Positions 1-55,667 of a stretch of 64,000 nucleotides of DNA are shown here, piece after piece. The notes beneath the pieces were generated by a model. It saw nothing but the letters and a program-made list of their open reading frames with translations, searched no databases and had not been told where the DNA came from. Numbering within the stretch: position 1 is the stretch's first letter; the number at the start of each line of letters is the position of its first letter. The position numbers and the translations under genes were made by a program. Source of the DNA: an uncultured virus (IMG/VR IMGVR_UViG_3300046003_003079) (Duplodnaviria; Heunggongvirae; Uroviricota; Caudoviricetes; Crassvirales); the IMG/VR virus record IMGVR_UViG_3300046003_003079. One strand, 5' to 3'.

Positions 1-248
1 ATTTTGTAAGTGCAGGAGCCGTGAATGTAGCGCCCTGACGAACATAAACGGAACCCGATACTTCGGTAAGTGCAGGAGCCGTGAATGTAGCGCCCTGACG
101 AACATAAACGGAACCCGATACTTCGGTAAGTGCAGGAGCCGTGAATGTAGCGCCCTCTTGAACATAAACGGAACCCGATTTTGTAAGTGCAGGAGCCGTG
201 AATGTAGCGCCCTCTTGAACATAAACGGAACCCGATACTTCGGTAAGT
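1..248. repeat. Coding tandem repeat, 57/60-bp units
   Basis: Four near-identical copies of gtaagtgcaggagccgtgaatgtagcgccct(gac g/ctt g)aacataaacggaacccgat; unit lengths are multiples of 3. Confidence 0.95.
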
Positions 249-4131: not shown

Positions 4132-4373
4132 TTTTTCTCCTTTACATGGTAGGTAACTCCTATCTTTTTGCCATTCTTGACTTTATAGATAGTTTCAATC
4201 TCGTAGCCCTTGTGGTTTGATTTGCGGACTGATTCTTGGTCGACAAGAATGGCGCCTAATAACATTGATACCAGTGTCACTGAAAACATAAATGGAAGTA
4301 CCTCTGTCCCTATTACTTTTGCATCAACCACAATAAGAACAATTATTATTAATACTAATAAAAAAATCAACAT
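4128..4373 (-). CDS. Small membrane protein
   Basis: Two hydrophobic segments. Confidence 0.6.
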   Translation of the reverse strand: MLIFLLVLIIIVLIVVDAKVIGTEVLPFMFSVTLVSMLLGAILVDQESVRKSNHKGYEIETIYKVKNGKKIGVTYHVKEKK

Positions 4374-4385
4374 AATTTAAAATTT

Positions 4386-4424
4386 AAAAATAAAATCAGG
4401 CAGTACTACACTTCCTGCCTGATT
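4386..4424 (-). terminator. Intrinsic terminator after the tmRNA coding piece
   Basis: Perfect 10-bp stem AATCAGGCAG/CTGCCTGATT followed by TTATTTTT on the minus strand. Confidence 0.8.
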
Positions 4425-4429
4425 AAACA

Positions 4430-4722
4430 CCCTACTTTACGCTACTGCGCGAAGTTGTGGATTCATTTGGATAACATTTGCGGTTATCTTTAAAGTAGTC
4501 TTAATCCTTTTACCTCTTTCTTGCTGTCAAGCCTAGAAACGCCCCCCATATGTTAGATTTTATTCTGCTCTAACTACAGCATTTAATAGTTCACAGGATT
4601 ACTGTTATCCTCAAGGGCAGTTTTCTGTGTTGACAACTACTGGTGGAGGCGGAGGGTTCTGCCCCCTCGTCCAAACAAGCGACTAATAATCAGACGGCAT
4701 GCAAGATGCCTAGACTAATTTG
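4430..4722 (-). ncRNA. ssrA: Circularly permuted (two-piece) tmRNA gene
   Basis: Minus strand, in order: acceptor piece ...TGGAC GAGGG GGCAGAA CCCTC CGCCTCC A CCA (ends 4641); 94-nt intervening segment; coding piece starting GGGGGCG TTTCTAGGCTTGAC (4546). Acceptor stem has G3-U70 and discriminator A. ATAACC precedes resume codon GCA (4481); tag ANVIQMNPQLRAVA* ends 4437. Confidence 0.9.
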
Positions 4723-4760
4723 TGACTGTGAACCAAACCAATAGTCCACAGCCAATTAAT

Positions 4761-5093
4761 TTAATCTAACAACGCTTCATTCTCTTTCAAGAATGCAATA
4801 AGCAAAGTATTCTCTTCCAATGCTTCCTCGGCCTCGGTAACTCGATTCTTTGCTGCAATCAAAGTAGCAACGTAATCGTCACCATCCGTAACTGGCTGAC
4901 CGAAATTCAGTCTTGCTTTCATTAAGTTTTCCTTTGCTAACTCAACTTCTTCTTCCAGCTTTACAGCATTGCCTTCCTTGATGCAGATATGCGTTTTTAA
5001 TGCTGCTTTAGATGTTCGTTGAGCACGGATTGCTTGAACTTCTGTTGTCTCACCTGCTGCCATAGCGATGAATTCTTTGATGTAACTTTTCAT
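4761..5093 (-). CDS. Hypothetical coiled-coil protein
   Basis: ORF track; helical, Ala/Glu-rich. Confidence 0.65.
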   Translation of the reverse strand: MKSYIKEFIAMAAGETTEVQAIRAQRTSKAALKTHICIKEGNAVKLEEEVELAKENLMKARLNFGQPVTDGDDYVATLIAAKNRVTEAEEALEENTLLIAFLKENEALLD

Positions 5094-6748: not shown

Positions 6749-6875
6749 TGGTCGCAAAAGGATTCGAACCTGTATCTATCATTGGGTTTCCCCTAAGTAT
6801 GAGGTGTGCTTACGATTATACTTCCAAATCTTTATCACTCCATCCTATAACGTCTACCAATTCCGCCATGCGACC
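6749..6875 (-). tRNA. tRNA-like RNA (127 nt) with abnormal extended anticodon arm; no assignable anticodon
   Basis: Acceptor stem GGTCGCA/TGCGACC+A; D-arm TGGCGGAATTGGTAGACG (Leu/Ser-type); T-arm AGG-TTCGAAT-CCT; ~75 nt between the D and T arms. Confidence 0.7.
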
Positions 6876-9900: not shown

Positions 9901-10636
9901 TCAGATATGCCGATTTCAACAATACGGTTTTCAAGAATGATTCTTGTTTCTCTACCGTCGTATCTACCGTCTACATCTTTAAATGAAGGATATAATTCTT
10001 TGATGACTGATATTATATTATCATGCAAATCATCAAATGCGAATTCATCATCAACCATTTCACCATCTTCATTTTCGTACTCAGTCTCATATTTTATATA
10101 TAAAACCTTAGTTGCATTGCTTAAATAATCTACAGAACGTCCCATGACTTTAGTTTTAAATGATTAATTATAAATACTTGCATCTGTTCAATGCATCTAA
10201 ATACTCTTCATTTGTTCCAATGAAATAGCATTTGTTTAGTCTACTCAACATTTTATTATTACCCGAAGCAATTCCGAAGATGGGGAGTAAATAATTATAT
10301 TGTTTTTGAGTTAATGGAAATGAATAGTCTCTCATAGCGCATGTTTTAAATGATTAATTAATTCCCATGCTGAAATTCGCCATCAATAAATACTGGCTCA
10401 TATTCCCCATGGTCTGCTGTCATATCGTCCAATTCAAAGAAGTCTGTAGTCGACGCTAATTTTAACTCATGACATACTGCGATTACAGGATATTCGTCAC
10501 CTTTTGTTGGATGCTCAACAAATACTATTTCTTGTCCTAAACTGTTAGTCATTCTACCGTACTCAGTAGGATTTAGACTGATTAATTTCTCGTAGTTTAA
10601 CATGATGTATGATTTTAAGGTTTTGCCCATCTGCAT
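6958..10636 (-). CDS. Cluster of ~13 small hypothetical early genes (6958-7182, 7287-~7437, 7447-7707, 7710-7958, 7971-8213, 8210-8587, 8652-8903, 8916-9158, 9174-9419, 9416-~9706, 9711-10145, 10168-10335, 10358-~10603)
   Basis: Contiguous co-oriented short ORFs, several acidic. 10168-10335 (MRDYSFPL...) is below the track cutoff. No recognisable domains. Confidence 0.6.
8606..8661 (-). ncRNA. Type I hammerhead ribozyme
   Basis: Minus strand: GACTAA CTGACGA GGAT-TAATT-ATCC GAAA C-GGCA-TGAAATAC-TGCC-G TA TTAGTC. Complete core (CUGANGA, GAAA, GUA triplet) and stems I-III. Confidence 0.9.
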
Positions 10637-16606: not shown

Positions 16607-16809
16607 ATGCTAAATACTTTTTACAAAACATGCATAAATTGTAAATAATATTTGTACATGAAAACTGAAACATGTATAAAAAGCAAATTATTTTATACTT
16701 TTCTGCGAGATTATCGCAAAATCTCGAAGCATTTATACAAATTATTTTATGTATATAAGTCGCAAGTATCAAAAAATAACTATATTTGCCAAAACTAAAT
16801 TTAATTAAA

Positions 16810-18405
16810 ATGATACCAAAGCACGTATATCTTGACGGAGACGGTCAAGACAAACTAAAGGCTGGCATTAAGAAATTGTCAGGAGCAGTCAAATCAACCC
16901 TTGGTCCATTCGGCAGGAATGTAATCATGGAGTCAGAAAATCATGTAGGCGGTACGACAATCACAAAAGACGGTGTGTCAGTAGCCAAGAATATCAACCT
17001 GTATGACCCAGTAGAAAATCTTGCTGTAACAATCGTAAAAGAGGCCGCAAACCGAACTGCATCAGTAGCAGGCGACGGAACCAGTACTTCGATAGTACTT
17101 ACAGAGGCACTTCTAGACGAGGCTGAAAAAATGATTGACGACAAAACAAACGTCACAGAAGTCATCCGTCATATGAATGACATCAAAGAGGACGTGATCA
17201 AATACCTCAGCAAAAAATCAAAAAAAGTTACAGATCGTAACCTGTTGGATGTAGCAACAATATCCTCAAACAATGACCCAGTACTTGGGAAGCTTATTGC
17301 CGACATGTTCAAGAAAGTAAAAGTTGTAACAGTTGAGGATTCAAAAACTCCAACAACCCACACAGACGTTATCGAAGGGCTTAAGTTTGATCGCGGGTAT
17401 TCATCCGTTGCAATGATCACCAACGAAGAAATGGAAACATGTGAGTTAATCAATCCATTCATCCTACTTACAGACATGGAGATCAACAATCTTTCTCACA
17501 TGGAAAAGATACTTGTTCCAATCATGCAAGCAGACAGGTCTTTACTTATCATCGGACGCATGTCTCCAGCAGCAATCAACACATTCAATTTAAATATCAA
17601 GAAAGGCAACATCAAAGGATGCCATGTCGAGCCGCCAAATCACGGATACAGACAAAAAGAAATGATGCGCGATTTAGAGGCTGCATTCGACGCTAAATTC
17701 TATTCTGAAGAGATAGGAGATGGATTACATTTAATCACGTCAGAAGGGCTAGGAAATGCCGCAAAAGCGATTATATCAAAAGACAGAACAGTTCTATATC
17801 GCAAGGACGGACAAGATGATGAAAAATTGCAACACAGACTTGAAGAATTAAGAAGCAAACTTACTGGAGAACTTTCATTATTCGAAAAGAAAGACATCAC
17901 TGACCGAATTTCAAATATCGACGGTGGAGTTGGTATCATCTACGTTGGAGCCAATTCTCCAGTAGAAGCAAAAGAAAAGAAAGATCGAGCAGACGATGCA
18001 GTTCGCGCAGTATCTGCAGCGATGGAAGACGGAATCATTGCTGGAGGCGGTGTCTCACTATTCAACGCAGCATCTATTATTCCAGTTGATCATTTCGAGC
18101 AGAACAAAGATCTATATGCAGCGCGTGAGATCATGTCTCATGCATTAATGACTCCATTCAAGCAGATAATTATAAATGCAGGTCAAGATCCAAGAGTGAT
18201 CATGGATGAGATTGAATTCAAAGCAGAAGAAGGATACGGCAAAAATCTTAAGACTGGAAAGTTTGGGAACATGATTAAAATGGGAGTAACAGACCCAACT
18301 CTCGTGACTAAATCAGCACTTAACAATGCAGTATCAGTTGCTACAACAATCATTTCTTCAAGTGCAATAATCACAAATATGAGAGCAGATGAAAGCGTTA
18401 AATGA
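16810..18405 (+). CDS. groEL: Phage chaperonin GroEL (Cpn60)
   Basis: TLGPFGRNV, ITKDGVSVAK, AGDGTSTS, DRGY and GGGV motifs; probable ATG start at 16810 downstream of a promoter box. Confidence 0.95.
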   Translation: MIPKHVYLDGDGQDKLKAGIKKLSGAVKSTLGPFGRNVIMESENHVGGTTITKDGVSVAKNINLYDPVENLAVTIVKEAANRTASVAGDGTSTSIVLTEALLDEAEKMIDDKTNVTEVIRHMNDIKEDVIKYLSKKSKKVTDRNLLDVATISSNNDPVLGKLIADMFKKVKVVTVEDSKTPTTHTDVIEGLKFDRGYSSVAMITNEEMETCELINPFILLTDMEINNLSHMEKILVPIMQADRSLLIIGRMSPAAINTFNLNIKKGNIKGCHVEPPNHGYRQKEMMRDLEAAFDAKFYSEEIGDGLHLITSEGLGNAAKAIISKDRTVLYRKDGQDDEKLQHRLEELRSKLTGELSLFEKKDITDRISNIDGGVGIIYVGANSPVEAKEKKDRADDAVRAVSAAMEDGIIAGGGVSLFNAASIIPVDHFEQNKDLYAAREIMSHALMTPFKQIIINAGQDPRVIMDEIEFKAEEGYGKNLKTGKFGNMIKMGVTDPTLVTKSALNNAVSVATTIISSSAIITNMRADESVK

Positions 18406-18649
18406 TTTTATAATTATCAACAAGGTAATCGAGGAGCATAAAACTTCTGGAGGATTACTTTTAACTGCTGAAGACACGAAAGAATTACGGTACCAGAGGG
18501 GTACTGTAATTTCTTTTGGACCACTAGTCAAATCAGCTAGAGAAGGTGTTGATATTTACTACGACAAGGTTAATGCCTTTGACGTTAGAATGGACGGGGA
18601 ATTATTTACAATGATCAGAGAGCGCGATTTAATAGCGGTGTGTGAATGA
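18389..18649 (+). CDS. groES: Co-chaperonin GroES (Cpn10)
   Basis: MKALND.III...KTSGGLLL mobile loop, GTVISFG, IRERDLIAV; adjacent to groEL. Confidence 0.88.
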   Translation: MKALNDFIIINKVIEEHKTSGGLLLTAEDTKELRYQRGTVISFGPLVKSAREGVDIYYDKVNAFDVRMDGELFTMIRERDLIAVCE

Positions 18650-43921: not shown

Positions 43922-44647
43922 ATGTCTGAAGTAACAGTTTCATATTCACCTCAAAGTTCTGGATGGACTTCATTCTGGTCCTATAAGCCAGACTGGATGA
44001 TCGGTATGAATAATTCTTTCTATACTTGGAAAGAAGGTAGTCTGTATAAGCATGATACTAATTCGGCTAGAAATAGATTCTATGGTTCTGATAATGAGTC
44101 ATCTATAACTACAATACTAAATCAAGATCCAACTACAAGCAAGATGTTTAAAACATTATATCTTGATAGTAATGTATCTTGGGATGCACAAGTGAATACA
44201 GATTTAAATGCTGGGGAGATTGTTTCTTCTTCTTTCAACGAGAAGGAAGGAATGTGGTACGGCTACATTAGAAGAAATGATGGAGACCTTGATCACAGAG
44301 CAATATCAACGCAAGGGATTGGAGAAGTAGATTCATTTGCATCAAACATATTAACATTTAGTTTTAGACTAAATACATCAGTAAGTCAGGGGGATTCCTT
44401 ATACAAGGTAGTGGGCGGAGCATTAACTTTAATTGGTGTAGTTGCATCGCATAACACAACAACCATAACACTCGTGTCGACGATATCCGCCCCTTCCTCT
44501 GGCGACTTAATTGTATATGTAAAAGATAGTGTTGCTGAGTCATATGGAACTCGCGGAGACTTTTTAACGGTTACACTTACCAATGCTTCAGCCAATAATG
44601 TAGAAATATTTGAAGTTGGAGCTAGCGTTTTTAAATCTTTTCCTTGA
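43922..44647 (+). CDS. Tail protein resembling the C-terminal part of nozzle/stabilization proteins
   Basis: VSYS....GWTSFWSYKP...MNNSFYTWKEG.LYKH, NQDP...KMFKTL and EKEGMWYG motifs. Confidence 0.6.
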   Translation: MSEVTVSYSPQSSGWTSFWSYKPDWMIGMNNSFYTWKEGSLYKHDTNSARNRFYGSDNESSITTILNQDPTTSKMFKTLYLDSNVSWDAQVNTDLNAGEIVSSSFNEKEGMWYGYIRRNDGDLDHRAISTQGIGEVDSFASNILTFSFRLNTSVSQGDSLYKVVGGALTLIGVVASHNTTTITLVSTISAPSSGDLIVYVKDSVAESYGTRGDFLTVTLTNASANNVEIFEVGASVFKSFP

Positions 44648-46742: not shown

Positions 46743-49700
46743 ATGCCAGTTGATTATAAAGAATTTGCGAAGACAATAAAGGCTAAATATCCACAGTACA
46801 AAGATGCTGACGACTTGACTCTAGCTAAGAAGATGGTCGAAAAATTTCCAGAATACAAGGATAAGGTAACATTTGAGCCAGTAAAAAAAAAAGAAAAGTC
46901 GGAATCGGATTCTCAATCTGGGGCAAGTACTTCTTCTTCGGTTACGCCAAGCAAACAAATGCCTTCGCCTTCGGGTTCATCTGCTCAAGGATATGACCCA
47001 AACAAGAACCTATTAAAGGCAGATCAAATAGCTCCAAAGCAGGAGTCAGTTTCGCGGACACAGGTATTTACTGGATATCCAACAAAAGAAAAGAATGAAT
47101 ACCGAGTTCAAGATGGTATTTGGCAAAGAAGACAGCCGAACGAATCTGGATGGCAGAATGTATTAAATGAAGGATCAGTAAATGCCCTAAACAAGCAATT
47201 CAACCAAAAAGTTGCTTACAGTTCAGCTAAAGAAAAGTATATTGGGGTAACTTCAAGTAAGAAAGAAGTTATGGATAGCAAGCTTACCGCTATAAACTCA
47301 AAACTTATTGATAAGGCAGAGGATGAAGTTGTTCCTAAAATGAAGTCTTTATTTCCAGACTTTGATTTTGCTACAAGCGGAACACTTACTGATGAAATGA
47401 AGGTAATAGCACCGAATGGTAAGACGCACACTGTTTCACTGGATAATTTCACATACGATTCAGATAAGAATGAAGCTGTATTATTGCGTGAATTCTTAAG
47501 AGCAAATTCAAACGATGAGTTAAATGCAGCTCAAAAAGAATTGAATGAAGCTCAAAAAGAAGCGGCTGTATTCGATATTCCATTATTCCAACCAAGAATA
47601 ACGTTGGGTGAAGGTGATGAAAGAATTATCACAAACCCAGAAGATATAAAGCAAGCTCCAAAAGCTGAAGGTAATATAATGTCTGCAAATGTAAGGTTAG
47701 ATGCAGCTACGAAAGCCTATGCGAAAGAAACCGTACAGGCATTTGAAGATGTAATGGACCGACAAGTACAGGCTGGAAAAACATCTGGCAAACTAGATGA
47801 TGAGGAAGCAAGAGCAGCCTATGCAGTCCTAAATCATGATTGGAAAACTGTTAAGGCTTACAATGACTTTTCAGCAGACATGAAGTCATCTGCCGATGAA
47901 CTTACAAAGCAATTTACTGATTTTTCAACTTGGGTAGATGGAATAAATGCCAGAGTGAAGAATGGTGAAATTTCTAAAGAGCAGTATGAAAGTGAGTATC
48001 TTCCACAGATGCAATCTGGACAAGAAGCCTTGAGAGCTAAGGCGGTTGAGATCGATGCTGACATAAAGACATCAAACAATATGTACACATCAATCGAAAG
48101 GTCTTCTGCTGAAAACTTGGTGATACAAGAATCTAGAGGATCAATTGGTGGCGGTATTGCATACAATTTCACGAAAGGACTTACAGATATTGCTAGGCTG
48201 GCTTCTATGGGAGCTGTATCAAAAGATGCTCAAGAGGATATTGTTAGATCAATCGTAGGTCAAGGAACTACTGCTGAATATATGTCTTCAGATAAGAGAA
48301 ACGACTTAACTAAAGTATTATTTAGTTTGTCTCAAACTCTTGGGCAAGCAGCTACTGGAGGTGTTCTTGGTGGGGGCGCTTCAGCTGCGAGTAAGGCAGC
48401 ATCATTCGCCCCATTCTACGCTGGTAGTTACTATGAAATGAGAGATCAGTTTGATAGCCCAGAGTTTGCTGATGTATCAGATGCTCAGAAAATATTGTTT
48501 TCATCTCTTTATGGAACCGCATCAGCTGTACTTGAGAAATATGGTTTAACGAAATCCATAGCAAAGACACCTATGGGTCAAGGACTGACTAATAGAATAT
48601 TAAATTCAGCTATTAAAGGACTTCCAAAAGATGCTACTGAAACACAAGTGAGAGATGCTATTGAGAATAGCGTTATAAATAAGCTAAAGGAAGCTGGAGT
48701 CAGAACGGTGAGTGCTGCCGTAATAGAAGGATCAACTGAAGCAGCTCAATCAGCTACTCAAATAACATTAAAGGAAACTTTTGATTTACTAAATGATAAT
48801 AATTATTTTGATAACGGTACTGGTTGGGACATTGCTAAGCAAATCGCAACTGAAGCATACTTAGGTGCGATTGGCGGGGGAATGATGAGCGTGGCTTCTA
48901 GCGGAACTAGAATCATGGCTGATGGAATAAATAAATCGCTGAATAAAGGTCAGATGGAAATGCTTGATGCTATCTCTAAGTTAGATGGTATGGATGCTGC
49001 ATTTGATGCTCATTTAAAGAGTAAGGTTATTAGCGGTGAAATAACTCCAGCAGAGGCTTCAGAAATGAATAAATCATTCCGAGAAGTTAAGGCAAACATG
49101 GATAAAATCCCAACTGACATCTCAATCGAAAAGAAATCAGAAGCGTTCGATTTAATGATTGAAAGATCTAAGATTGAAAAAGAGATTGAAGGCAAGGAGG
49201 ATAACTTAGTTGTTGGTCAAAAGGAAAGAATTAAAGAAATCAATCTTTCATTACAAGAATTAAGTACTGCTAAAGCGGAACCAATAGAAGCTAACGACCA
49301 AGTTGACGTGCAAATTAACGACCAAGTTGTGGTTGATAAGCCAGTCATTGCAAAAAATGCAACTGTTGAGGTAGAAAGATTAAAAACATTAGCTCCAGAA
49401 GTTGAGGATGGCGCTACATTAAATCTAGACGGATCTAAATATGAAGGAGTTGGATTAGTGGTACCAGTTGATAGTATCAATACAACTACTGAAGAAATTA
49501 CTCCAGAAATGATTGCTGACTTTGTTGAGTCACGTCAAGAAATGATTGGAGATGCTGGAGTAGTAAAAGCTGGAGTATATAAATTCCCAAATAGTAATCA
49601 GGTATCTATCGATTTGTCAGTAGTCGTTCCAGAAACATCAAGAGAACAAGCAATTGAATTCGGGAAGTTGGCTGATCAAGAGTCCTTATTTGACTTAGGT

Positions 49701-52700
49701 ACATTTGAAAATGTGAAAACTGGGGGGACTGGATTAAATCCAATGAAATTTACTCCAGAGCAACATAGAGAAATTGCGACTGCATTAAAAGAAGGAAGAG
49801 TTCCAAATGTATTTGGTTCACAATCACAAGCTGTAGAGCAAAACGAACTCACACTTGATAATTATTCAGACGTTGAGAAATCAATTGTAACGAACGATAA
49901 GGATGGTAGAGCTACGAATATAGCAAAAGCAGCTAGAGCTGTGCTTAAATCTCTTCCTAGTGCAAAAATATACCTACATAATACCACTGAAGAATATCGA
50001 GATGCAATCGCGAAGGCAGAAGGATCAGATCGTGAGCAGGTGGATATCGATGAGAATGGGGACCAGCAGTCAAACGGTACATACTTAAATGGAGGAATTC
50101 ATATAGACATGTCTAGAGCTGATGCGTCAACAGTATTCCACGAAGCATTTCATCATGCAGTTGTTACTACAGAAATGAAGAAAGAACTGATGCGTGACTG
50201 GGTGGATGGACTGAAGAAAATTGTATCAGATAAAGATCTTATTGCAAAGCTTGAAGGTTTTGAGTCCAGATACGATGGGGATGTGGATTCCGATAAGGCT
50301 GAAGAATTTCTTGCCGAACTAAATGCAATACTAGCTGAAGCAAAGACTGAATTAACAACTACTAAGCTGCAACAATTTAAGCAGTTAGTAAATTCTATTG
50401 CTAAAAAGTTAGGGCTTCCTGCTGTGTTTAAGGATTCAGATACTGCTCAAGAGGTTTTGAATTTTATGAACGACATGGCTAAAAACATGCGTCAAGGGAA
50501 GGAGATAAAAACTACTTCTGTAGTTGGAGATATTGCTTCTCGTAAAAAACGTATGTCTGAGCCAGTTGCTGGGAATAAATTATTCAGCGAGCCTCTTAAG
50601 GATGCATCTGTAATTGCAGAAAGATATTCAGAGAAATCTGGTATTGAGTATGTCGATCCAGCGAAAATCTCAAAACTTGATGAAAGCAATTCAAAAGCAA
50701 TTGCTGCTGAGTACGACAAAATGAAAAATGATCCTACTGATCCAGAAGTGAAAGCTGCGTATGACGCAATGATTAGTGAGACAATCGATCAATATGAAGA
50801 GATCATTAAGGATGGATATGTAATCGAAGTGAATAACAACGAGCCATACTCTAGTTCTGAAGAGATGATAAAAGATCTTCGTGATAATAAGCGAATGAAA
50901 ATATTCTCTACTGAGTCTGGATTTGGAGATGATCCAATTACTGATGAGCAGAGAGCAGAAAACCCATTACTTCAAAGAACTAAGTATTCAGATTCGAATG
51001 GAGTTCCATTACTAGCGAATGATATATTTAGATTTGTGCATGACTTCTTTGGTCACGCTAAATTTGGAAATGGATTTGGTCCAGTTGGGGAGGAAAATGC
51101 TTGGAGAATTCATTCAGTTATGTATTCTGAATTAGCCAGAAGAGCTGTTACTTCTGAAACGAGAGGTCAAAATAGCTGGGTTAATTTTAGTGGGGTGAAT
51201 GACGCTGCATTTAAACTGCGTGATAAAGCCAGAGAGTTACGTAAGCAAGGTAAAATTAATGAAGCAAATGAAATGGTTGGTCAAGTTTATGATCAAATGC
51301 AATTTGCTGAACAGAAGGTTGGATTAATGCCAGAGTGGGTATCAGAAACTGGGCCTCGTAAAAAACAAAAGTCAGGTAAGAAGCCACTTCAAAAAGCAAT
51401 CGATAAGTCATTCGCGAAGTCTACTAAAAAAGTAGTTATAAATGAGCGTGTTGCACTTAGAGATCAAATAAAATCAGAAGTGAAAGCTGCGCGTACAGCT
51501 GGCCTTGATAAGGTAAGAAAATTCAGAGCGATTGCTGGTGCAGTAAATGCAATGAAGCGTAATGGATCGATCACTTCGAAGCAAGCAATCACTATTGTAA
51601 ACAAGCTTGCAAAAGTTAATTTAGATAGTCCAGTAGCTACGCAGAAATTCATAGATTACGCATCGAAAGTATTCGATAATGCTGATTACAAACAGCAATT
51701 GTCTGATGCATTTAAGATTCAACGACAAATTAAAAACAAGTTAAAAAATGGTCAAGCATCAACTATTGCAGCAGCTAAGGCTTTTGCGTCAATCGATCCA
51801 CTTCTTGTGGATGACTTTAGTGAATACATGGAGTACGCGAACAGAGTGTATTCAGCTGTACGCTCATCTCGTACCACTAATTCAGCGGTAGAATTAAAGT
51901 CTGCTATGGATATCCAAGCGATTAGTGAATATACTGACGCTATGATTGAAGTACAGAATGAAAAAAGAAAGGAAGAAATTCTTGCAGTATACCAAGAACT
52001 AGTAGATGCTGGAGTTATATCTGAAGACATGTCTTTGAAAGATATTCAATCAGTAATAAATTCACTTAAGGACCCGTCCAATAAAGACATCCAAGAGGAA
52101 AGTATTCGTGCATTCATCAATGGAAGAATTGAATTATTAAATAATGATATCCAGTTCATCCTTAAGAATAGCATTGATCCATCTGGAGATAATTTAGAGA
52201 TCACTCCAAGACAGCGAGAACTTATTTCGAAACTGATTAAAATAGATGCGTCAAAACTTTCTATAAAAGAAGCGATTAGACTTGTTGAATTCATGGATAA
52301 CTTCACAGCTAATGGAGTAGTTGATGGGATTGAGGAGGTTAGTTCTATTTACGAAGGTAAAGAAGGCGCTGCTAGAATTAAGAAAGAAGGAATTGTAGCT
52401 AGGTCTTTGAAGACACTTAATGGAAAATTGAGTGGGTCCAAAACAAAAGCTTACGGAGGTGCTATTTGGGCGCAACAGATGATGACATTTGTTACTCTGA
52501 ATGACATGATGTTCAAGGGTGTTCGTAGAGCTGGGAAGGTTCTTACTGAGATGGGATTTTATGCCTTTTCCAATGGTGCCAATAAGGCGAATAATACTTG
52601 GAATAAGATTGTAAATGAATATTCTGACACATTCACTAAGCTAAAACCTAATGGAGAAAAATTTAACACAGCTAAAAATATCTATGAGCGCGGGATGTAT

Positions 52701-55040
52701 GCGTTCATTAATAGAACTGTAGCTGGTACTGAGGCTCAACAAAAAGAAGAGCTAGCAAGAAAGGTTGGATTGCTTAAGGAAAGTATCTCAAGACTTAAAA
52801 AGAAAGGGGATTTGAAGCAGCAGAAAATGGCTGACATCTACCAAGAGCTATTTGATAAGCTTGGTCTTGATGAAAACAATCTTATCATTTCTGATATTGA
52901 GTCTAGAATCGATCCAATAAATAAGGATGCTGTAAACTGGTGGATTGATGAATGGGGTAAGCACTACTCTGACCTTGCTGATGTAAGTTCAAGCGTGTAT
53001 AATACCATTCTTGGTAAAGATGTAAACTATACCCCAGATGCATTCTCAAAGATTACATCTACGGCTGACAATATTGAACAGATACTTGAGGATAATGGCG
53101 GAGCTTTTGCTGCATCACTTAACTACGTGTACGATAAAAAAGCTGGAGCATTAATGGAATCGAAGAAGTTATCTGGAATGGATATAGATAGATTCGTTAA
53201 TCTAGACTTTGATGCTGTAAATTCTCGTGCGGTTAAATCAGCATTAATTGATATCAATACTGCTGCAGCTACAAGACAGATTCAAGGATTTCTTTCTTCT
53301 GATGAGTGGAGCGAAATAATTCCAAGTAAAGAAGACAGGGATTTGTATGAAGCAAAACTTAAATCATACATTTTCAGATCTAGAAATAAAATGGCTGGAT
53401 CAGCTGACAAAGATTCAACACTTGCAACTATTGAGCGTATCACTAGAACTATGGGTCTTTTAGGTACAACTAAGGCATTAGGTGGAGTTCTTCAGTCAAT
53501 CAAGCAAACTGTTCCAGTTATGATTAATACTGCAATCAATACTGGAGAAACAATGAGAATTCTGACTCCATTTAAGGATAAGGATATTCATGACTGGATT
53601 GATAGAAGTGGGATGGCTATTTCGAATCGTGGAGCTGAATCAAGAACAAACATCGAGGCGGCCCATGACGTATTAGAGAAAGCATTTGAAGGGTCTGCAA
53701 TTGGAAGAGCTACTGAAGAAACATGGAAAGCTATTGAAAAAGCAAATACAATGTGGCTTAAAGTGTTCCTTGCTAATCCAGATGTTTGGGTAGCGAGAAG
53801 CGCATTCATTTCTTACTACAAGCAGGACTTGAAAAGACAAGGAATTGATGCAAGTAATATTGATTGGACTAATCACGAGATGAATACTGAGGCAGCAAAC
53901 TATGCTCAACACATGGTTGATCGCCAGCAGAACGTATCTGATACAAATCTTGGAGGTGAGTTGTTTACAAATGAAAACTTCTACGCAAAAATGCTTAAGA
54001 ATATTTTATTCCCATTTGCATCATTTGCTATAAACCAGAAGTCAAGAATGTATTCAGATGTCGCGACACTCACTTCAACTGATGGTTCATACGAGGATAA
54101 AGTAACAGCAATGAGATCTCTTGGAGGTGTTATTGTTGAGATGCTTGCTTACCAATCGTTAGGTGTAATGATCAGATATGCAATTATTACTGCAGTCAGA
54201 GAAGCACTTACTGGATATGAGCCAGATGAAGAAGAAAAGGATAAGTGGTTTGCAAATCAAGCAAAATACGCATCAAGACAAACAATAGTCGATCTTGCAT
54301 CTCCAGCTCCAATTGCTGATTACTGGGTGATTGAGGCGGTGAATAAAATGATCGGAGCAGTATCTGATCCATCTGATTCTACAATCCAAGATGCAGTAAA
54401 TGTTGAGAATGAAGCAAGAATGCTTAAAGGTGAAGACCCGCTTGATGGATACAAGAAGGATGAATGGATTGCTAACTGGAAGAAAGAACAAGTAAAAGAC
54501 AATCAGTTCTTAAATGATTCAGATATGTCATTCGGTACGCTTGGAATTATTGGCGATAAGGCTGGAAAACTTCTTGATATGATTGAAGTCGCCAATACTG
54601 GAGTACTTAACTATGAGTTTGCAGGACAGAAGCAAGAGAAATTCATTATGGAAAAAGATCGTGAAGCAGTTAAAACAATGATTCCATACATGGCGCTATA
54701 CGTGGCTGGATTCGCACCTAAAGAGGTGGAAGATGCATCGAGATATGTGATAGCTGACACTAAGAAAATGGGTGTTTCAATGAAAAAGGGAGTTACTTAT
54801 CAAGAAATTGTAGATTACAATAAAGGGAAAGAAGTTGATAAAATTCAAGCATTCTTGATTGATAAGATGAGAGGTACCGATGACATGAAGGCATCAGAAA
54901 GAATTATTGAGGAGATCGACTGGATCAATGAGAAAGGTGGATTAAGCAATGATAAGCAGATGGATAAATATATCGAAATCTACGAAAGAGATGGCAGCGT
55001 TGGAGCTACCGACATGGAGAAAATCCAGAAGTTAAAGTAA
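46743..55040 (+). CDS. Giant internal virion / polyvalent protein (2765 aa)
   Basis: Last gene of the structural arm; HEAFH...EEFLAE zincin-like motif (~50139) and RFVHDFFGH..GEENAW..H..ETRGQNSW domain (~51030-51190). Confidence 0.7.
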   Translation: MPVDYKEFAKTIKAKYPQYKDADDLTLAKKMVEKFPEYKDKVTFEPVKKKEKSESDSQSGASTSSSVTPSKQMPSPSGSSAQGYDPNKNLLKADQIAPKQESVSRTQVFTGYPTKEKNEYRVQDGIWQRRQPNESGWQNVLNEGSVNALNKQFNQKVAYSSAKEKYIGVTSSKKEVMDSKLTAINSKLIDKAEDEVVPKMKSLFPDFDFATSGTLTDEMKVIAPNGKTHTVSLDNFTYDSDKNEAVLLREFLRANSNDELNAAQKELNEAQKEAAVFDIPLFQPRITLGEGDERIITNPEDIKQAPKAEGNIMSANVRLDAATKAYAKETVQAFEDVMDRQVQAGKTSGKLDDEEARAAYAVLNHDWKTVKAYNDFSADMKSSADELTKQFTDFSTWVDGINARVKNGEISKEQYESEYLPQMQSGQEALRAKAVEIDADIKTSNNMYTSIERSSAENLVIQESRGSIGGGIAYNFTKGLTDIARLASMGAVSKDAQEDIVRSIVGQGTTAEYMSSDKRNDLTKVLFSLSQTLGQAATGGVLGGGASAASKAASFAPFYAGSYYEMRDQFDSPEFADVSDAQKILFSSLYGTASAVLEKYGLTKSIAKTPMGQGLTNRILNSAIKGLPKDATETQVRDAIENSVINKLKEAGVRTVSAAVIEGSTEAAQSATQITLKETFDLLNDNNYFDNGTGWDIAKQIATEAYLGAIGGGMMSVASSGTRIMADGINKSLNKGQMEMLDAISKLDGMDAAFDAHLKSKVISGEITPAEASEMNKSFREVKANMDKIPTDISIEKKSEAFDLMIERSKIEKEIEGKEDNLVVGQKERIKEINLSLQELSTAKAEPIEANDQVDVQINDQVVVDKPVIAKNATVEVERLKTLAPEVEDGATLNLDGSKYEGVGLVVPVDSINTTTEEITPEMIADFVESRQEMIGDAGVVKAGVYKFPNSNQVSIDLSVVVPETSREQAIEFGKLADQESLFDLGTFENVKTGGTGLNPMKFTPEQHREIATALKEGRVPNVFGSQSQAVEQNELTLDNYSDVEKSIVTNDKDGRATNIAKAARAVLKSLPSAKIYLHNTTEEYRDAIAKAEGSDREQVDIDENGDQQSNGTYLNGGIHIDMSRADASTVFHEAFHHAVVTTEMKKELMRDWVDGLKKIVSDKDLIAKLEGFESRYDGDVDSDKAEEFLAELNAILAEAKTELTTTKLQQFKQLVNSIAKKLGLPAVFKDSDTAQEVLNFMNDMAKNMRQGKEIKTTSVVGDIASRKKRMSEPVAGNKLFSEPLKDASVIAERYSEKSGIEYVDPAKISKLDESNSKAIAAEYDKMKNDPTDPEVKAAYDAMISETIDQYEEIIKDGYVIEVNNNEPYSSSEEMIKDLRDNKRMKIFSTESGFGDDPITDEQRAENPLLQRTKYSDSNGVPLLANDIFRFVHDFFGHAKFGNGFGPVGEENAWRIHSVMYSELARRAVTSETRGQNSWVNFSGVNDAAFKLRDKARELRKQGKINEANEMVGQVYDQMQFAEQKVGLMPEWVSETGPRKKQKSGKKPLQKAIDKSFAKSTKKVVINERVALRDQIKSEVKAARTAGLDKVRKFRAIAGAVNAMKRNGSITSKQAITIVNKLAKVNLDSPVATQKFIDYASKVFDNADYKQQLSDAFKIQRQIKNKLKNGQASTIAAAKAFASIDPLLVDDFSEYMEYANRVYSAVRSSRTTNSAVELKSAMDIQAISEYTDAMIEVQNEKRKEEILAVYQELVDAGVISEDMSLKDIQSVINSLKDPSNKDIQEESIRAFINGRIELLNNDIQFILKNSIDPSGDNLEITPRQRELISKLIKIDASKLSIKEAIRLVEFMDNFTANGVVDGIEEVSSIYEGKEGAARIKKEGIVARSLKTLNGKLSGSKTKAYGGAIWAQQMMTFVTLNDMMFKGVRRAGKVLTEMGFYAFSNGANKANNTWNKIVNEYSDTFTKLKPNGEKFNTAKNIYERGMYAFINRTVAGTEAQQKEELARKVGLLKESISRLKKKGDLKQQKMADIYQELFDKLGLDENNLIISDIESRIDPINKDAVNWWIDEWGKHYSDLADVSSSVYNTILGKDVNYTPDAFSKITSTADNIEQILEDNGGAFAASLNYVYDKKAGALMESKKLSGMDIDRFVNLDFDAVNSRAVKSALIDINTAAATRQIQGFLSSDEWSEIIPSKEDRDLYEAKLKSYIFRSRNKMAGSADKDSTLATIERITRTMGLLGTTKALGGVLQSIKQTVPVMINTAINTGETMRILTPFKDKDIHDWIDRSGMAISNRGAESRTNIEAAHDVLEKAFEGSAIGRATEETWKAIEKANTMWLKVFLANPDVWVARSAFISYYKQDLKRQGIDASNIDWTNHEMNTEAANYAQHMVDRQQNVSDTNLGGELFTNENFYAKMLKNILFPFASFAINQKSRMYSDVATLTSTDGSYEDKVTAMRSLGGVIVEMLAYQSLGVMIRYAIITAVREALTGYEPDEEEKDKWFANQAKYASRQTIVDLASPAPIADYWVIEAVNKMIGAVSDPSDSTIQDAVNVENEARMLKGEDPLDGYKKDEWIANWKKEQVKDNQFLNDSDMSFGTLGIIGDKAGKLLDMIEVANTGVLNYEFAGQKQEKFIMEKDREAVKTMIPYMALYVAGFAPKEVEDASRYVIADTKKMGVSMKKGVTYQEIVDYNKGKEVDKIQAFLIDKMRGTDDMKASERIIEEIDWINEKGGLSNDKQMDKYIEIYERDGSVGATDMEKIQKLK

Positions 55041-55424: not shown

Positions 55425-55667
55425 TTACTCCGTAAAATTAGCTTTTACTGCCCACATTGCAGCCTCTTCATAACTTGTCTGAGCAATTGAGATAACTCTA
55501 TGTTTTTCGGAAGAAATATAAGCGCCTTCTACTTCGTGAATCCTCATTTTTTCAACTAAATCAATCAATTCAGCTGATTTGTCTTTGATTTGACTCACCA
55601 AATCGCTTTTTGCAGGATTAAACTCTGCCTTTACTCGTTTTTGTCCTAATGTTTGAGACATATTCAT
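55425..55667 (-). CDS. Acb2/Tad1-like helical-hairpin protein (putative nucleotide-signal sponge)
   Basis: IKDKSAELIDL...R.ISIAQTSYEEAAMWAVKA motif. Confidence 0.6.
   Translation of the reverse strand: MNMSQTLGQKRVKAEFNPAKSDLVSQIKDKSAELIDLVEKMRIHEVEGAYISSEKHRVISIAQTSYEEAAMWAVKANFTE

What the first reader, a model, noticed from the sequence alone, without database searches (positions are those of the whole stretch)
4430..4722. Minimal circularly permuted (two-piece) tmRNA in a Bacteroidota-type phage
Seen: the CCA-ending acceptor piece (~4720-4641) is transcribed before the coding piece (4546-~4430), separated by a 94-nt hairpin-forming spacer. Acceptor stem GGGGGCG/CGCCTCC has G3-U70 and discriminator A. 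The pieces pair through AGCAAG/CTTGTT, GGTAA/TTATT and AGACTA/TAGTCT. The tag frame ANVIQMNPQLRAVA* is closed by a perfect CTACTTTA/TAAAGTAG helix, and I see no pseudoknots; mature size is about 200 nt. Established: two-piece tmRNAs are known from Alphaproteobacteria (which share the GGC-type T-loop seen here, GGCAGAA), some cyanobacteria and Betaproteobacteria; typical Bacteroidota tmRNA is one-piece with a tag ending YALAA. Inference: an independent or horizontally acquired permuted viral tmRNA whose different tag (..RAVA) could redirect or evade host proteolysis.
Basis: partly seen in the sequence, partly recalled or inferred. Interest (0 to 1): 0.92.

Follow-up and report, generated by a model that had tools for sequence, protein, structure and literature searches.

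The report
Two-piece tmRNA gene in flavobacterial-type phage
This phage carries a real, back-to-front ("two-piece") and very small gene for tmRNA, the RNA that frees stalled ribosomes; it belongs to a family found in phages of Bacteroidota, but its tRNA-like corner looks like the alphaproteobacterial type.

Summary
ARAGORN calls a permuted tmRNA at 4346-4733(-) with tag ANVIQMNPQLRAVA. Rfam's tmRNA_permuted model scores 51 bits, above its cut-off of 47.

It is not an orphan. It belongs to a family of small permuted tmRNAs that I found in:
- Maribacter phage Panino and Chryseobacterium phage MA9V-3;
- a prophage in a Paludibacter genome;
- about 15 viral or metagenome contigs.

Family tags are conserved as peptide; the closest is GNVIQMYPQLRATA. 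The acceptor stem, T-arm and helix P2a are supported by covariation. The family's 5' half and resume-codon context look like one-piece Bacteroidota tmRNAs. The leader is about 30-45 nt shorter, which leaves no room for pseudoknot 1.

The "tag-closing" helix is not conserved. The spacer folds no better than shuffles. The coding piece probably runs on to a terminator ending near 4386.

One feature is particular to this copy: T-loop GGCAGAA, D-loop UAGG and an encoded CCA are of the alphaproteobacterial type. An alpha-type profile fits the acceptor piece better than the family profile does; only the family profile finds the coding piece.

This scan reported the same family on other DNA several times. 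Two-piece phage tmRNAs are already in print.

The parts
4641..4725 (-). Acceptor piece; the 5' end is approximate. It holds distal P2 strand candidates UAGUCU 4717-4712 and UUAUU 4689-4685, a hairpin GGCAU 4710-4706 / AUGCC 4700-4696, the P2a 3' strand CUUG-U-UUG 4679-4672, the T-arm 4668-4652, the acceptor 3' strand 4651-4645, A4644 and CCA 4643-4641.
   Evidence: Contigs of related DNA stop resembling the window at 4729. No RNA ends were mapped.
4657..4663 (-). T-loop GGCAGAA, of the alphaproteobacterial GGC type. All 16 other family members read UUCG...
   Evidence: Among 120 alpha-type viral loci the loops are GGCAGUA 93, GGCGGUA 26 and GGCAGAA 1.
4547..4640 (-). Intervening spacer, to be removed by tRNA-type processing. 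Its first about 14 nt (GUAGUUGUCAACAC) resemble the spacer start of L359/L222/L243.
   Evidence: Fold z -0.75. Three of the four substitutions that one search lists for a 325-nt variant contig lie here.
4386..4546 (-). Coding piece: 5' acceptor strand GGGGGCG 4546-4540, D-loop analogue UUUCUAGGCUU 4539-4529, GAC 4528-4526, P2a 5' strand to 4520, leader, tag frame, and terminator.
   Evidence: The family coding-piece profile hits 4535-4435, E 4.5e-08.
4437..4481 (-). Tag reading frame: resume codon GCA 4481-4479, ANVIQMNPQLRAVA, stop UAA 4439-4437.
   Evidence: ARAGORN. The Rfam match ends at 4437. Peptide-level conservation in relatives.
4470..4488 (-). 6-bp hairpin GAUAAC/GUUAUC that shows the resume codon in its loop.
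   Evidence: Predicted. Paired in 61% of family cells; present only in part of the family.
4434..4455 (-). Hairpin over the end of the tag frame and the stop codon (ACUU-C-GCGC / GCGU-A-AAGU), comparable to helix 5 of standard tmRNA.
   Evidence: The inner pairs are kept in 11-15 of 15 members. Together with the resume hairpin: 62.4% of cells paired, against 28-40% when the partners are slid.
4386..4424 (-). Intrinsic-terminator-like hairpin AAUCAGGCAG 4424-4415 / CUGCCUGAUU 4403-4394 with tail UUAUUUUU.
   Evidence: The consensus scan missed it because its loop is 11 nt. Related contigs stop resembling the window at 4389. Variant 4423 changes A-U to G.U.

Best explanation
The region is a functional phage ssrA gene in circularly permuted form.

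Proposed sequence of events (all inferred):
1. One transcript, read right to left on the window, carries the acceptor piece, a 94-nt spacer and the coding piece, and stops at the hairpin ending near 4386.
2. RNase P cuts before G4546. The 3' side of CCA4641 is trimmed.
3. The two RNAs stay together through the acceptor stem and helix P2.
4. Host AlaRS charges the RNA through G3.U70 and discriminator A.
5. Host SmpB and EF-Tu deliver it to ribosomes stalled on broken mRNAs.
6. Translation resumes at GCA4481 and adds (A)ANVIQMNPQLRAVA before UAA. The ribosome is freed and the product is marked.

The phage most likely gains rescue capacity during infection, when mRNA decay or host RNase defences make many non-stop messages, and uses a tag of its own.

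The gene belongs to a family carried by phages of Bacteroidota. That family looks derived from the one-piece Bacteroidota tmRNA by permutation and loss of the pseudoknots. In this copy the T-arm, acceptor 3' strand and D-loop have become alphaproteobacterial in type, either by patchy recombination with an alpha-type phage tmRNA or by convergence.

Shown: gene anatomy, family membership, covariation of the core helices, peptide-level conservation of the tag. Inferred: processing, charging, tagging, benefit to the phage.
For: Detection:
- ARAGORN calls a permuted tmRNA.
- RF04321 scores 51 bits against a cut-off of 47.

Core helices, on 14 family genes:
- 92.5% of cells are paired against 83.0% in shuffles (0 of 500 shuffles reach it) and 51-56% when the partners are slid.
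- G3.U70 is present in 14 of 14.
- There are compensatory changes at acceptor pair 6:67 and at two T-stem pairs.
- P2a has at least 6 consecutive pairs, in one of two registers, in 14 of 16 members.

Tag:
- The window against L359 shows 4 synonymous and 3 replacement codons, including CGC/AGA, both Arg.
- L279 against L319 shows 5 synonymous and 2 replacement codons.

Family:
- Members occur in Panino (RF04321 62.2 bits), in MA9V-3 (64.7 bits) and in a Paludibacter prophage beside a portal gene.
- 12 of 13 further family loci score above the cut-off.
- The family coding-piece profile hits the window at E 4.5e-08; the alpha coding-piece profile gives no hit.

Bacteroidota affinity:
- Host tags are GNNSYALAA, GENNYALAA and GNTQYAMAA, and the 5' halves read GGGGGUGACCGGUUUUGACAGCA...
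- Host resume codons lie at 95-98; family resume codons lie at 53-67.

No SmpB gene was found among 88 of the 95 window ORFs scanned against Pfam, so the RNA must use host factors.
Against: - No RNA data. No RNA run holds the stretch, so transcription, the cuts at 4546 and 4641, and charging are unshown.
- No Bacteroidota-type -7 motif (TAnnTTTG, recalled) lies upstream. The motif is not enriched in the window: 84 found against 74 +/- 8 expected.
- Distal P2 pairing is weak by energy. 13 of 15 members have z below 0, but only 3 of 15 beat 95% of shuffles.
- RNAalifold finds no shared structure over the tag region.
- The gene is sporadic. 0 of 50 TerL-related viral records, 7 of them at least 90% complete, have a match over the cut-off. 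MW202828.1 and NC_055852.1 also lack it.
- The T-loop departs from all other family members, so fit to a Bacteroidota SmpB and to its modification enzymes is uncertain.
- The host is inferred from relatives only.
Confidence: 0.8

Rival explanations
1. It is a decoy rather than a rescuer. The tRNA-like domain soaks up host SmpB, AlaRS or RNase R and so blocks host trans-translation; the tag frame is not decoded.
For: PMC11915505 (passages read) reports that a phage tmRNA without a coding sequence, from mycobacteriophage DS6A, inhibits the endogenous tmRNA in E. coli. This copy's elbow differs from the host type. It has no PK1.
Against: The tag frame is kept as peptide across diverged relatives, with synonymous changes. 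The resume-codon context (A)UAAC/A-N before the resume codon is conserved. A decoy would not need either.
Confidence: 0.08
2. The whole gene was taken from an alphaproteobacterium or from an alpha-type phage tmRNA, as the GGC T-loop suggests. It is simply a diverged member of the alpha lineage.
For: RF01849 matches the tRNA-like domain locally at 36.7 bits. From GGAC to CCA the window differs by one base from alpha-type locus L108. The alpha acceptor-piece profile scores 28.6 bits against 12.0 for the family profile. CCA is encoded, as in the alpha-type loci.
Against: RF01849 is below its cut-off of 50 and covers only model positions 82-172 of 355. The alpha coding-piece profile gives no hit, while the family profile gives E 4.5e-08. 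The tag is 11 of 14 identical to L359 and unlike ANDN..ALAA. The P2a strand CUUGUUUGGACGAGGG equals the Bacteroidota host type. The spacer start is shared with L359.
Confidence: 0.07
3. It is a software false positive or a dead remnant, for example an attachment-site fragment of a host tmRNA.
For: Phages often carry tmRNA 3' fragments as attachment sites (PMC9004378, passages read). The RF04321 score is only 4 bits over the cut-off.
Against: Both halves, the tag frame and a terminator are present. Covariation supports the helices. Close variants keep the helices: 4513 changes G.U to A-U, and 4423 changes A-U to G.U. No integrase was found among the 88 ORFs scanned.
Confidence: 0.03

Closest known systems
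Permuted tmRNAs of Maribacter phage Panino (PP540027.1, 27590-27798) and Chryseobacterium phage MA9V-3 (PV245944.1, 22766-23124, annotated 'transfer-messenger RNA SsrA')
   Same: Same gene order, a short leader without PK1, P2a next to UUUGGAC, and resume context AUAAC/A-N. The tags are related: GKVMNVSFAPTVRQFA and GNVIDINKYVAKLEVAA. The hosts are Bacteroidota. Panino's TerL is 40.5% identical to the window's.
   Different: Their T-loops are UUCGA.., CCA is not encoded, and the resume codon is GGN (Gly) rather than GCA. Panino's gene sits between tRNA genes. The passages that mention tmRNA in the two papers (PMC11590407, PMC13120357) name a tmRNA but do not say it is permuted.
Alpha-type two-piece tmRNAs (Rfam RF01849; Caulobacter, pelagiphages, phage Melnitz, Erythrobacter phage vB_EliS-L02)
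   Same: Permuted order, GGC-type T-loop, UAGG in the D-loop, GGGGGCG/CGCCUCC acceptor stem, encoded CCA.
   Different: Alpha tags are ANDN..ALAA. The alpha-specific mRNA-like domain is not matched: RF01849 scores 36.7 against a cut-off of 50, and the alpha coding-piece profile gives no hit.
One-piece tmRNAs of Bacteroidota hosts and of Cellulophaga phages Calle and phi38:1
   Same: The 5' half GGGGGUGACCGGUUUUGACAGCA.., the strand ..CUUGUUUGGACGAGGGUUCGA.., and the AUAAxU GGC resume context resemble the family.
   Different: They are one piece. The resume codon lies at about 95-98 rather than 53-67. Host tags end in YALAA or YAMAA.
ARAGORN 'Permuted' entries for Cellulophaga phage phi4:1 and crAss-like phages cr115_1, cr114_1, cr10_1 and cr50_1 in Table S1 of PMC9004378
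   Same: Permuted tmRNAs in phages of Bacteroidota were already listed in 2022 (supplement rows read).
   Different: They are listed only. I did not fetch or compare these genes, so their relation to the window's family is not tested here.

Membership tests
tmRNA (ssrA) in general | 7-bp acceptor stem with G3.U70, discriminator A and 3' CCA | tested here: met
   GGGGGCG 4546-4540 pairs with CGCCUCC 4651-4645, followed by A4644 and CCA 4643-4641. G.U is present in 14 of 14 family genes.
tmRNA (ssrA) in general | T-arm and a P2 helix in place of an anticodon arm | tested here: met
   The T-arm is paired in 100% of cells, with compensatory changes. P2a is paired in 79.6% of cells in one register, and 14 of 16 members have at least 6 consecutive pairs.
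tmRNA (ssrA) in general | Short tag frame with a resume codon and a stop, conserved as peptide | tested here: met
   ANVIQMNPQLRAVA*. Synonymous changes against relatives.
tmRNA (ssrA) in general | Pseudoknot PK1 before the resume codon. It is usual but not universal. | tested here: not met
   44 nt lie between GAC and the resume codon in the window and 30-53 nt in the family. In the three hosts with a credible call the resume codon lies at 95-98. Part of the 44 nt is taken up by P2.
tmRNA (ssrA) in general | Alanylation, SmpB binding, trans-translation | not testable with these tools
   No RNA holder is listed. No SmpB gene was found among the 88 ORFs scanned.
Circularly permuted tmRNA (Rfam RF04321) | The acceptor piece is encoded upstream of the coding piece, and the score reaches the gathering score | tested here: met
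   51.0 bits against 47, model positions 1-213. ARAGORN marks the call as permuted (tmRNA*).
Circularly permuted tmRNA (Rfam RF04321) | The precursor is cut into two RNAs | not testable with these tools
   Only DNA contigs could be laid on the stretch.
Alphaproteobacterial two-piece tmRNA (RF01849) | Full-length match at or above 50 bits, including the alpha-specific mRNA-like domain | tested here: not met
   36.7 bits, model positions 82-172 of 355 only. The alpha coding-piece profile gives no hit.
Alphaproteobacterial two-piece tmRNA (RF01849) | GGC-type T-loop with UAGG in the D-loop | tested here: met
   GGCAGAA and CUAGG. Compare the model consensus GGCgGUA / uAGGA and the alpha-type loci.
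Bacteroidota-phage permuted tmRNA family (informal; Panino, MA9V-3, L359 and others) | Coding piece, resume context and tag are alike | tested here: met
   A profile built without the window gives E 4.5e-08. The tag is 11 of 14 identical to L359.
Bacteroidota-phage permuted tmRNA family (informal; Panino, MA9V-3, L359 and others) | T-loop UUCGAnn, as in hosts and all other members | tested here: not met
   The window has GGCAGAA; 16 of 16 other members have UUCG... The family acceptor-piece profile scores only 12.0 bits.

The most novel reading that the evidence does not exclude
Two readings go together.

1. The family is a fourth, phage-borne origin of two-piece tmRNA, made from the Bacteroidota one-piece gene and stripped of its pseudoknots.
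2. This copy is a natural chimera. Its elbow (T-loop, D-loop, acceptor 3' strand with CCA) was exchanged for the alphaproteobacterial type while its mRNA-like half stayed of the family type.

This would show that the D-loop and T-loop change together as one module and can move between tmRNA lineages. It might change which host SmpB, modification enzymes or RNases act on the RNA. It might also record a host shift or a mixed infection across phyla.
Probability: 0.3. Interest if true: 0.65.

Novelty: new variant of a known kind. Interest (0 to 1): 0.5.

Why it matters
Print sources name three main bacterial clades with two-piece tmRNA: Alphaproteobacteria, a betaproteobacterial group and cyanobacteria (PMC11915505, sections read). 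Phage copies have been discussed as taken from those clades (PMC9004378, passages read).

A family that looks Bacteroidota-derived, is carried by phages and has no PK1 would be a separate origin. It would also be among the smallest natural tmRNAs, which is useful for asking what trans-translation minimally needs.

The conserved ..PQLRAVA tag differs from the host's ..YALAA. It therefore offers a testable case of a virus marking stalled products in its own way.

The alpha-like elbow in an otherwise family-type gene is a small natural experiment on T-loop and D-loop compatibility.

The limit is that tools already find and label such genes, and this scan has met the family several times.

Tried and rejected
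DNA and pattern searches that found nothing:
- blastn of the 401-nt region against 50,697 phage records: no match.
- Exact 26-mer in viral contigs: 0 hits.
- UUGGAC followed by a GGCAGAA loop in viral contigs: 0 hits.

Relatives without the gene:
- G001, the nearest record, has no tmRNA. This says nothing, because it is a 55.5-kb fragment. By the two offsets (my arithmetic) it lacks window 249 to about 14,350.

Structure tests that failed or were weak:
- Tag-closing helix as a family feature: rejected.
- One shared structure over the tag region: none.
- Energy test of distal P2: weak.
- An unconstrained co-fold pairs the terminator region with the 5' hairpin of the acceptor piece. I take this to follow from two similar hairpins, not from a real helix.

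Promoters:
- The sigma-70-like scan finds 4 sites against 2.7 expected.
- TAnnTTTG is not enriched, and there is no copy upstream of the gene.

Expression:
- No RNA holder is listed.
- The contigs laid show no RNA ends.

Literature and supplements:
- In the supplement of PMC11915505 only the model and alignment archive could be read. Its Table S2, the breakdown of forms by taxon, could not be seen. It may list permuted forms in phages or in Bacteroidota.
- The AcrIIIA1 paper turned out not to bear on this.

Earlier notes of this scan:
- Look-ups by sequence and by place returned nothing.

Other:
- The genome-contig pattern matches many phyla, so the 3' domain alone does not place the family.

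Full report
**1. What is in the sequence**

On the minus strand the upstream ORF ends at 4761. The following elements come next, in order:
- A region with a hairpin: AAUUAG 4720-4715, GGCAU 4710-4706 / AUGCC 4700-4696, CUGAUU 4693-4688.
- CUUGUUUGGAC.
- A T-arm: GAGGG 4668-4664, loop GGCAGAA 4663-4657, CCCUC 4656-4652.
- CGCCUCC 4651-4645, A4644, CCA 4643-4641.
- 94 nt of spacer.
- GGGGGCG 4546-4540, UUUCUAGGCUU, and GAC 4528-4526 followed by AGCAAG.
- A 38-nt leader.
- The frame GCA4481...UAA4437.
- A 10-bp hairpin 4424-4394 with a U-rich tail to 4386.

The next ORF starts at 4373. ARAGORN makes a single tmRNA call in the window: permuted, 4346-4733(-), tag ANVIQMNPQLRAVA*. Rfam's tmRNA_permuted model (RF04321) scores 51.0 bits against a gathering score of 47, E 4.6e-07, over 4437-4693. 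The alpha model RF01849 matches only the tRNA-like domain: 36.7 bits against a cut-off of 50, model positions 82-172 of 355.

**2. The carrier**

The window is a phage.
- PHROGs names a large terminase, a portal, virion proteins and GroEL.
- Pfam adds GroES, a crAss muzzle C-terminal domain and an Acb2/Tad1 hairpin domain.
- The large terminase finds 87 phage records: 68 Flavobacterium, 15 Cellulophaga, 2 Tenacibaculum, 1 Maribacter and 1 uncultured. The best is 66% identical; cultured phages reach 32-45%.
- Pfam found no SmpB, Clp or integrase family in 88 of the 95 ORFs. Of the other 7 ORFs, 6 went to PHROGs. The 2765-aa ORF was never scanned.

The host is inferred, not shown. Runs that hold the stretch in full are lake-water metagenomes, and they may be its source.

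**3. Relatives of the RNA**

The gene is sporadic among the phage's kin.
- 0 of 50 TerL-related IMG/VR records have a match over the cut-off; 7 of the 50 are at least 90% complete. I searched 50 of the 78 loci, choosing the longer records.
- MW202828.1 and NC_055852.1 also have none.

A blastn search with the 42-nt acceptor end found Chryseobacterium phage MA9V-3.
- Its annotated tmRNA is permuted: ARAGORN tag GNVIDINKYVAKLEVAA**, RF04321 64.7 bits.

Pattern scans of viral contigs gave both permuted and standard phage tmRNAs.
- One search returned 4 loci.

A group among them shares the window's leader and tag (ARAGORN; my reading of the sequences; confirmed by translation):

| Locus | Tag |
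|---|---|
| L222 | GNVIEMYPQIRATA |
| L243 | GNVIEMYPQLRATA |
| L279, L293 | GKIIQMFPQQLRAVA |
| L319 | GKTIQMFPTQLRAVA |
| L233 | GKEISMPQLKAVA |
| L238 | GKSISMVPQAFRMAV |
| L309 | GKTISISNAPVRQAA |
| L252 | GKVINLFGNDVKVAA |
| L328 | PKVINLFGNSVQAAA |
| L314 | GNNQFQKQALRIAA |

Further members:
- One metagenome scan gave 4 loci. Two were chance matches; two were family members with tag GNVIQMYPQLRATA, which is 11 of 14 identical to the window.
- Maribacter phage Panino has a permuted tmRNA of 62.2 bits with tag GKVMNVSFAPTVRQFA, set between tRNA genes.
- Cellulophaga phages Calle_2 and phi38:1 have one-piece tmRNAs.
- phi18:3 and Gundel_1 have no match over the cut-off of either model.
- A 675-kb contig titled as a Paludibacter MAG holds a family member (tag GNKTIQMFTPSLRMAV) beside a phage portal gene (phrog_156, E 6.7e-52). 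The same contig carries the host's own one-piece tmRNA with tag GENNYALAA.
- 12 of 13 further family loci pass RF04321's cut-off; L217 scores 40.9 bits.

**4. Structure tests**

On 14 whole genes (alignment A1) I tested the acceptor stem, the T-arm and P2a together.
- 92.5% of cells are paired, against 83.0% in shuffles (0 of 500 shuffles reach it) and 51-56% when the partners are slid.
- G3.U70 is invariant.
- Pair 6:67 is A-U in 12 genes and G-C in 2.
- Two T-stem pairs change on both sides.
- P2a exists in two registers. 14 of 16 members have at least 6 consecutive pairs, L238 has 5, and L314 was anchored wrongly by my script.

Distal P2 is weak by energy: 13 of 15 members have z below 0, but only 3 of 15 beat 95% of shuffles. 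Within L279, L293 and L319 an 8-bp distal helix (GUAAGUAC/GUACUUAC and its variants) keeps pairing through changes. This is my reading of the sequences.

In the window it also overlaps AGACUA by 3 nt. Two local hairpins do better. One is around the resume codon (4488-4470) and one is over the end of the frame (4455-4434). Together they give 62.4% of cells paired against 59.2% in shuffles (9 of 500 reach it) and 28-40% when slid. RNAalifold finds no structure common to all 15. The spacer folds no better than shuffles.

**5. Is the tag decoded?**

Codon comparisons show third-position and synonymous changes.
- Window against L359: 4 synonymous and 3 replacement codons, with Arg as CGC in one and AGA in the other.
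- L279 against L293: 1 synonymous and 0 replacement, plus UGA against UAA as the stop.
- L279 against L319: 5 synonymous and 2 replacement.

This is what selection on a peptide gives.

**6. Close variants**

DNA contigs laid on the stretch:
- A 325-nt contig of run X6 covers 4397-4722 with 7 differences and 1 gap.
- Four substitutions are listed. Three lie in the spacer (4564, 4590, 4629). The fourth, 4513, turns a G.U of GGUAA/UUAUU into A-U.
- One G of the run 4547-4542 is missing, which fits a 5' end at 4546.
- In run X7, 4423 turns an A-U of the terminator stem into G.U.
- In X7 and X14 the likeness stops at 4729 and 4389 and unlike sequence follows. The gene therefore sits as a unit in another context.
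- High-depth short pieces over 4643-4678 are other organisms' tmRNA ends.

**7. Origin**

Hosts:
- In three of the four Bacteroidota genomes looked at, the one-piece tmRNA has tag GNNSYALAA, GENNYALAA or GNTQYAMAA, with the resume codon at 95-98. The fourth call is doubtful.
- Their 5' halves read GGGGGUGACCGGUUUUGACAGCA.., their 3' strands ..CUUGUUUGGACGAGGGUUCGA.., and their resume context AUAAxU GGC. All three resemble the family.
- Among 73 tmRNAs that ARAGORN called in 120 bacterial loci sharing the 3' pattern, the 5' halves nearest to the family come mostly from records titled Alistipes, Rikenellaceae or Chitinophagaceae.
- 0 of 151 genomes sampled from the class of G052 have an RF04321 match. 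G052 is a record titled Chitinophagaceae; that its GTDB class is Bacteroidia is recalled. The control rang only in Caulobacter.
- Family resume codons lie at 53-67. About 30-45 nt are missing, roughly the size of PK1 as I recall it.

This points to a separate permutation of a Bacteroidota-type gene, carried by phages.

This copy differs.
- Its T-loop GGCAGAA, D-loop UAGG, G6-C67 pair and encoded CCA are as in alpha-type genes. The alpha-type loci read GGCAGUA in 93, GGCGGUA in 26 and GGCAGAA in 1 of 120, and their D-loops read ..AGG(A/U/C)U(C/U).
- Profiles built without the window make the mosaic measurable:

| Piece of the window | Family profile | Alpha-type profile |
|---|---|---|
| Acceptor piece | 12.0 bits | 28.6 bits (E 6.1e-08) |
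| Coding piece | E 4.5e-08 | no hit |

- The start of the spacer is shared with L359. One block exchange running from the T-loop to the D-loop is therefore unlikely. Patchy exchange or convergence remain open.

**8. What is known**

- Two-piece phage tmRNAs are in print. PMC9004378 counts 53 among 133 unique phage tmRNAs (passages read). Its Table S1 lists 'Permuted' for Cellulophaga phage phi4:1 and four crAss-like phages (rows read).
[quoted passage not shown] Its Table S2 could not be seen.
- The passages that mention tmRNA in the Panino and MA9V-3 papers do not call it permuted.
- My searches for a description of a Bacteroidota-phage lineage listed none. I saw listings and abstracts only, apart from the papers named above.
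- This scan noted the same family on other DNA at least seven times, with the same reading. Those notes are unchecked AI notes, and I reached my reading before I saw them.

**9. Verdict**

- The gene is a real two-piece phage tmRNA.
- It is a new variant of a known kind.
- The family-level points (Bacteroidota-type origin, no PK1, its own tag) and the alpha-like elbow of this copy are the parts worth a specialist's look.

Noticed in passing
window 6749-6875 (-): A tRNA-like gene with a good acceptor stem, D-arm (GGCGGAAUUGGUAGACG) and T-arm, but 67 nt where the model expects 13 around the anticodon. Rfam tRNA scores 31.8 bits against a cut-off of 29. ARAGORN does not call it. It may be a type II tRNA with an insert or a small intron.
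   Followed up: partly
window 55428-55667 (-): An 80-aa protein with an Acb2/Tad1 hairpin domain (PF24729, E 5.1e-13), a family I recall as phage sponges for defence signalling nucleotides.
   Followed up: no
window 16786-18646 (+): Phage-encoded GroEL (539 aa) and GroES (86 aa) side by side. With the tmRNA, this makes a second protein-quality-control function in the same genome.
   Followed up: no
window 43922-44644 and 46743-55040 (+): A protein with a crAss muzzle C-terminal domain (PF25729, E 5.7e-15), and a 2765-aa ORF that I never scanned.
   Followed up: no
window 1-248; G001:C1:54973-55506: The first 248 bases of the window match three overlapping places at the end of the nearest viral record. 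This suggests tandem repeats where that contig breaks. The two offsets between window and record imply a genome of about 69.4 kb by my arithmetic.
   Followed up: partly
L293:882-980; spacers of L293, L319, L307: The spacer of a related permuted tmRNA hits the wcaG RNA motif (RF01761) at 34.2 bits, below its cut-off of 42. Three related spacers share a conserved element of about 60 nt (..GGUGGAUUUGCUUAACCAGCAGCCCUGAG..). Some spacers may therefore carry a structured RNA of their own.
   Followed up: no
L485 (G055:C2:573200-593100), tmRNA at 9933-10338: A prophage-like region in a genome titled Paludibacter carries a family-type permuted tmRNA next to a portal gene and DNA methyltransferases. 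The host's one-piece tmRNA lies 325 kb away on the same contig.
   Followed up: partly
window 4688-4720 and 4394-4424 (-): The hairpin at the 5' end of the acceptor piece and the terminator hairpin resemble each other (AAUyAG..GGCA...UGCC..CUGAUU). An unconstrained co-fold therefore pairs the two RNA ends with each other. Whether this is a real end-to-end helix or a by-product is open.
   Followed up: partly
L214, L249, L281, L282, L296, L318, L332 (viral contigs): A second group of very compact permuted phage tmRNAs has only 16-23 nt between CCA and G1, with tags GEQVE(L/M)AMAA or EHVEMAMAA. The first 24 nt of L214's 5' half are identical to those of the one-piece phage tmRNA L216.
   Followed up: no
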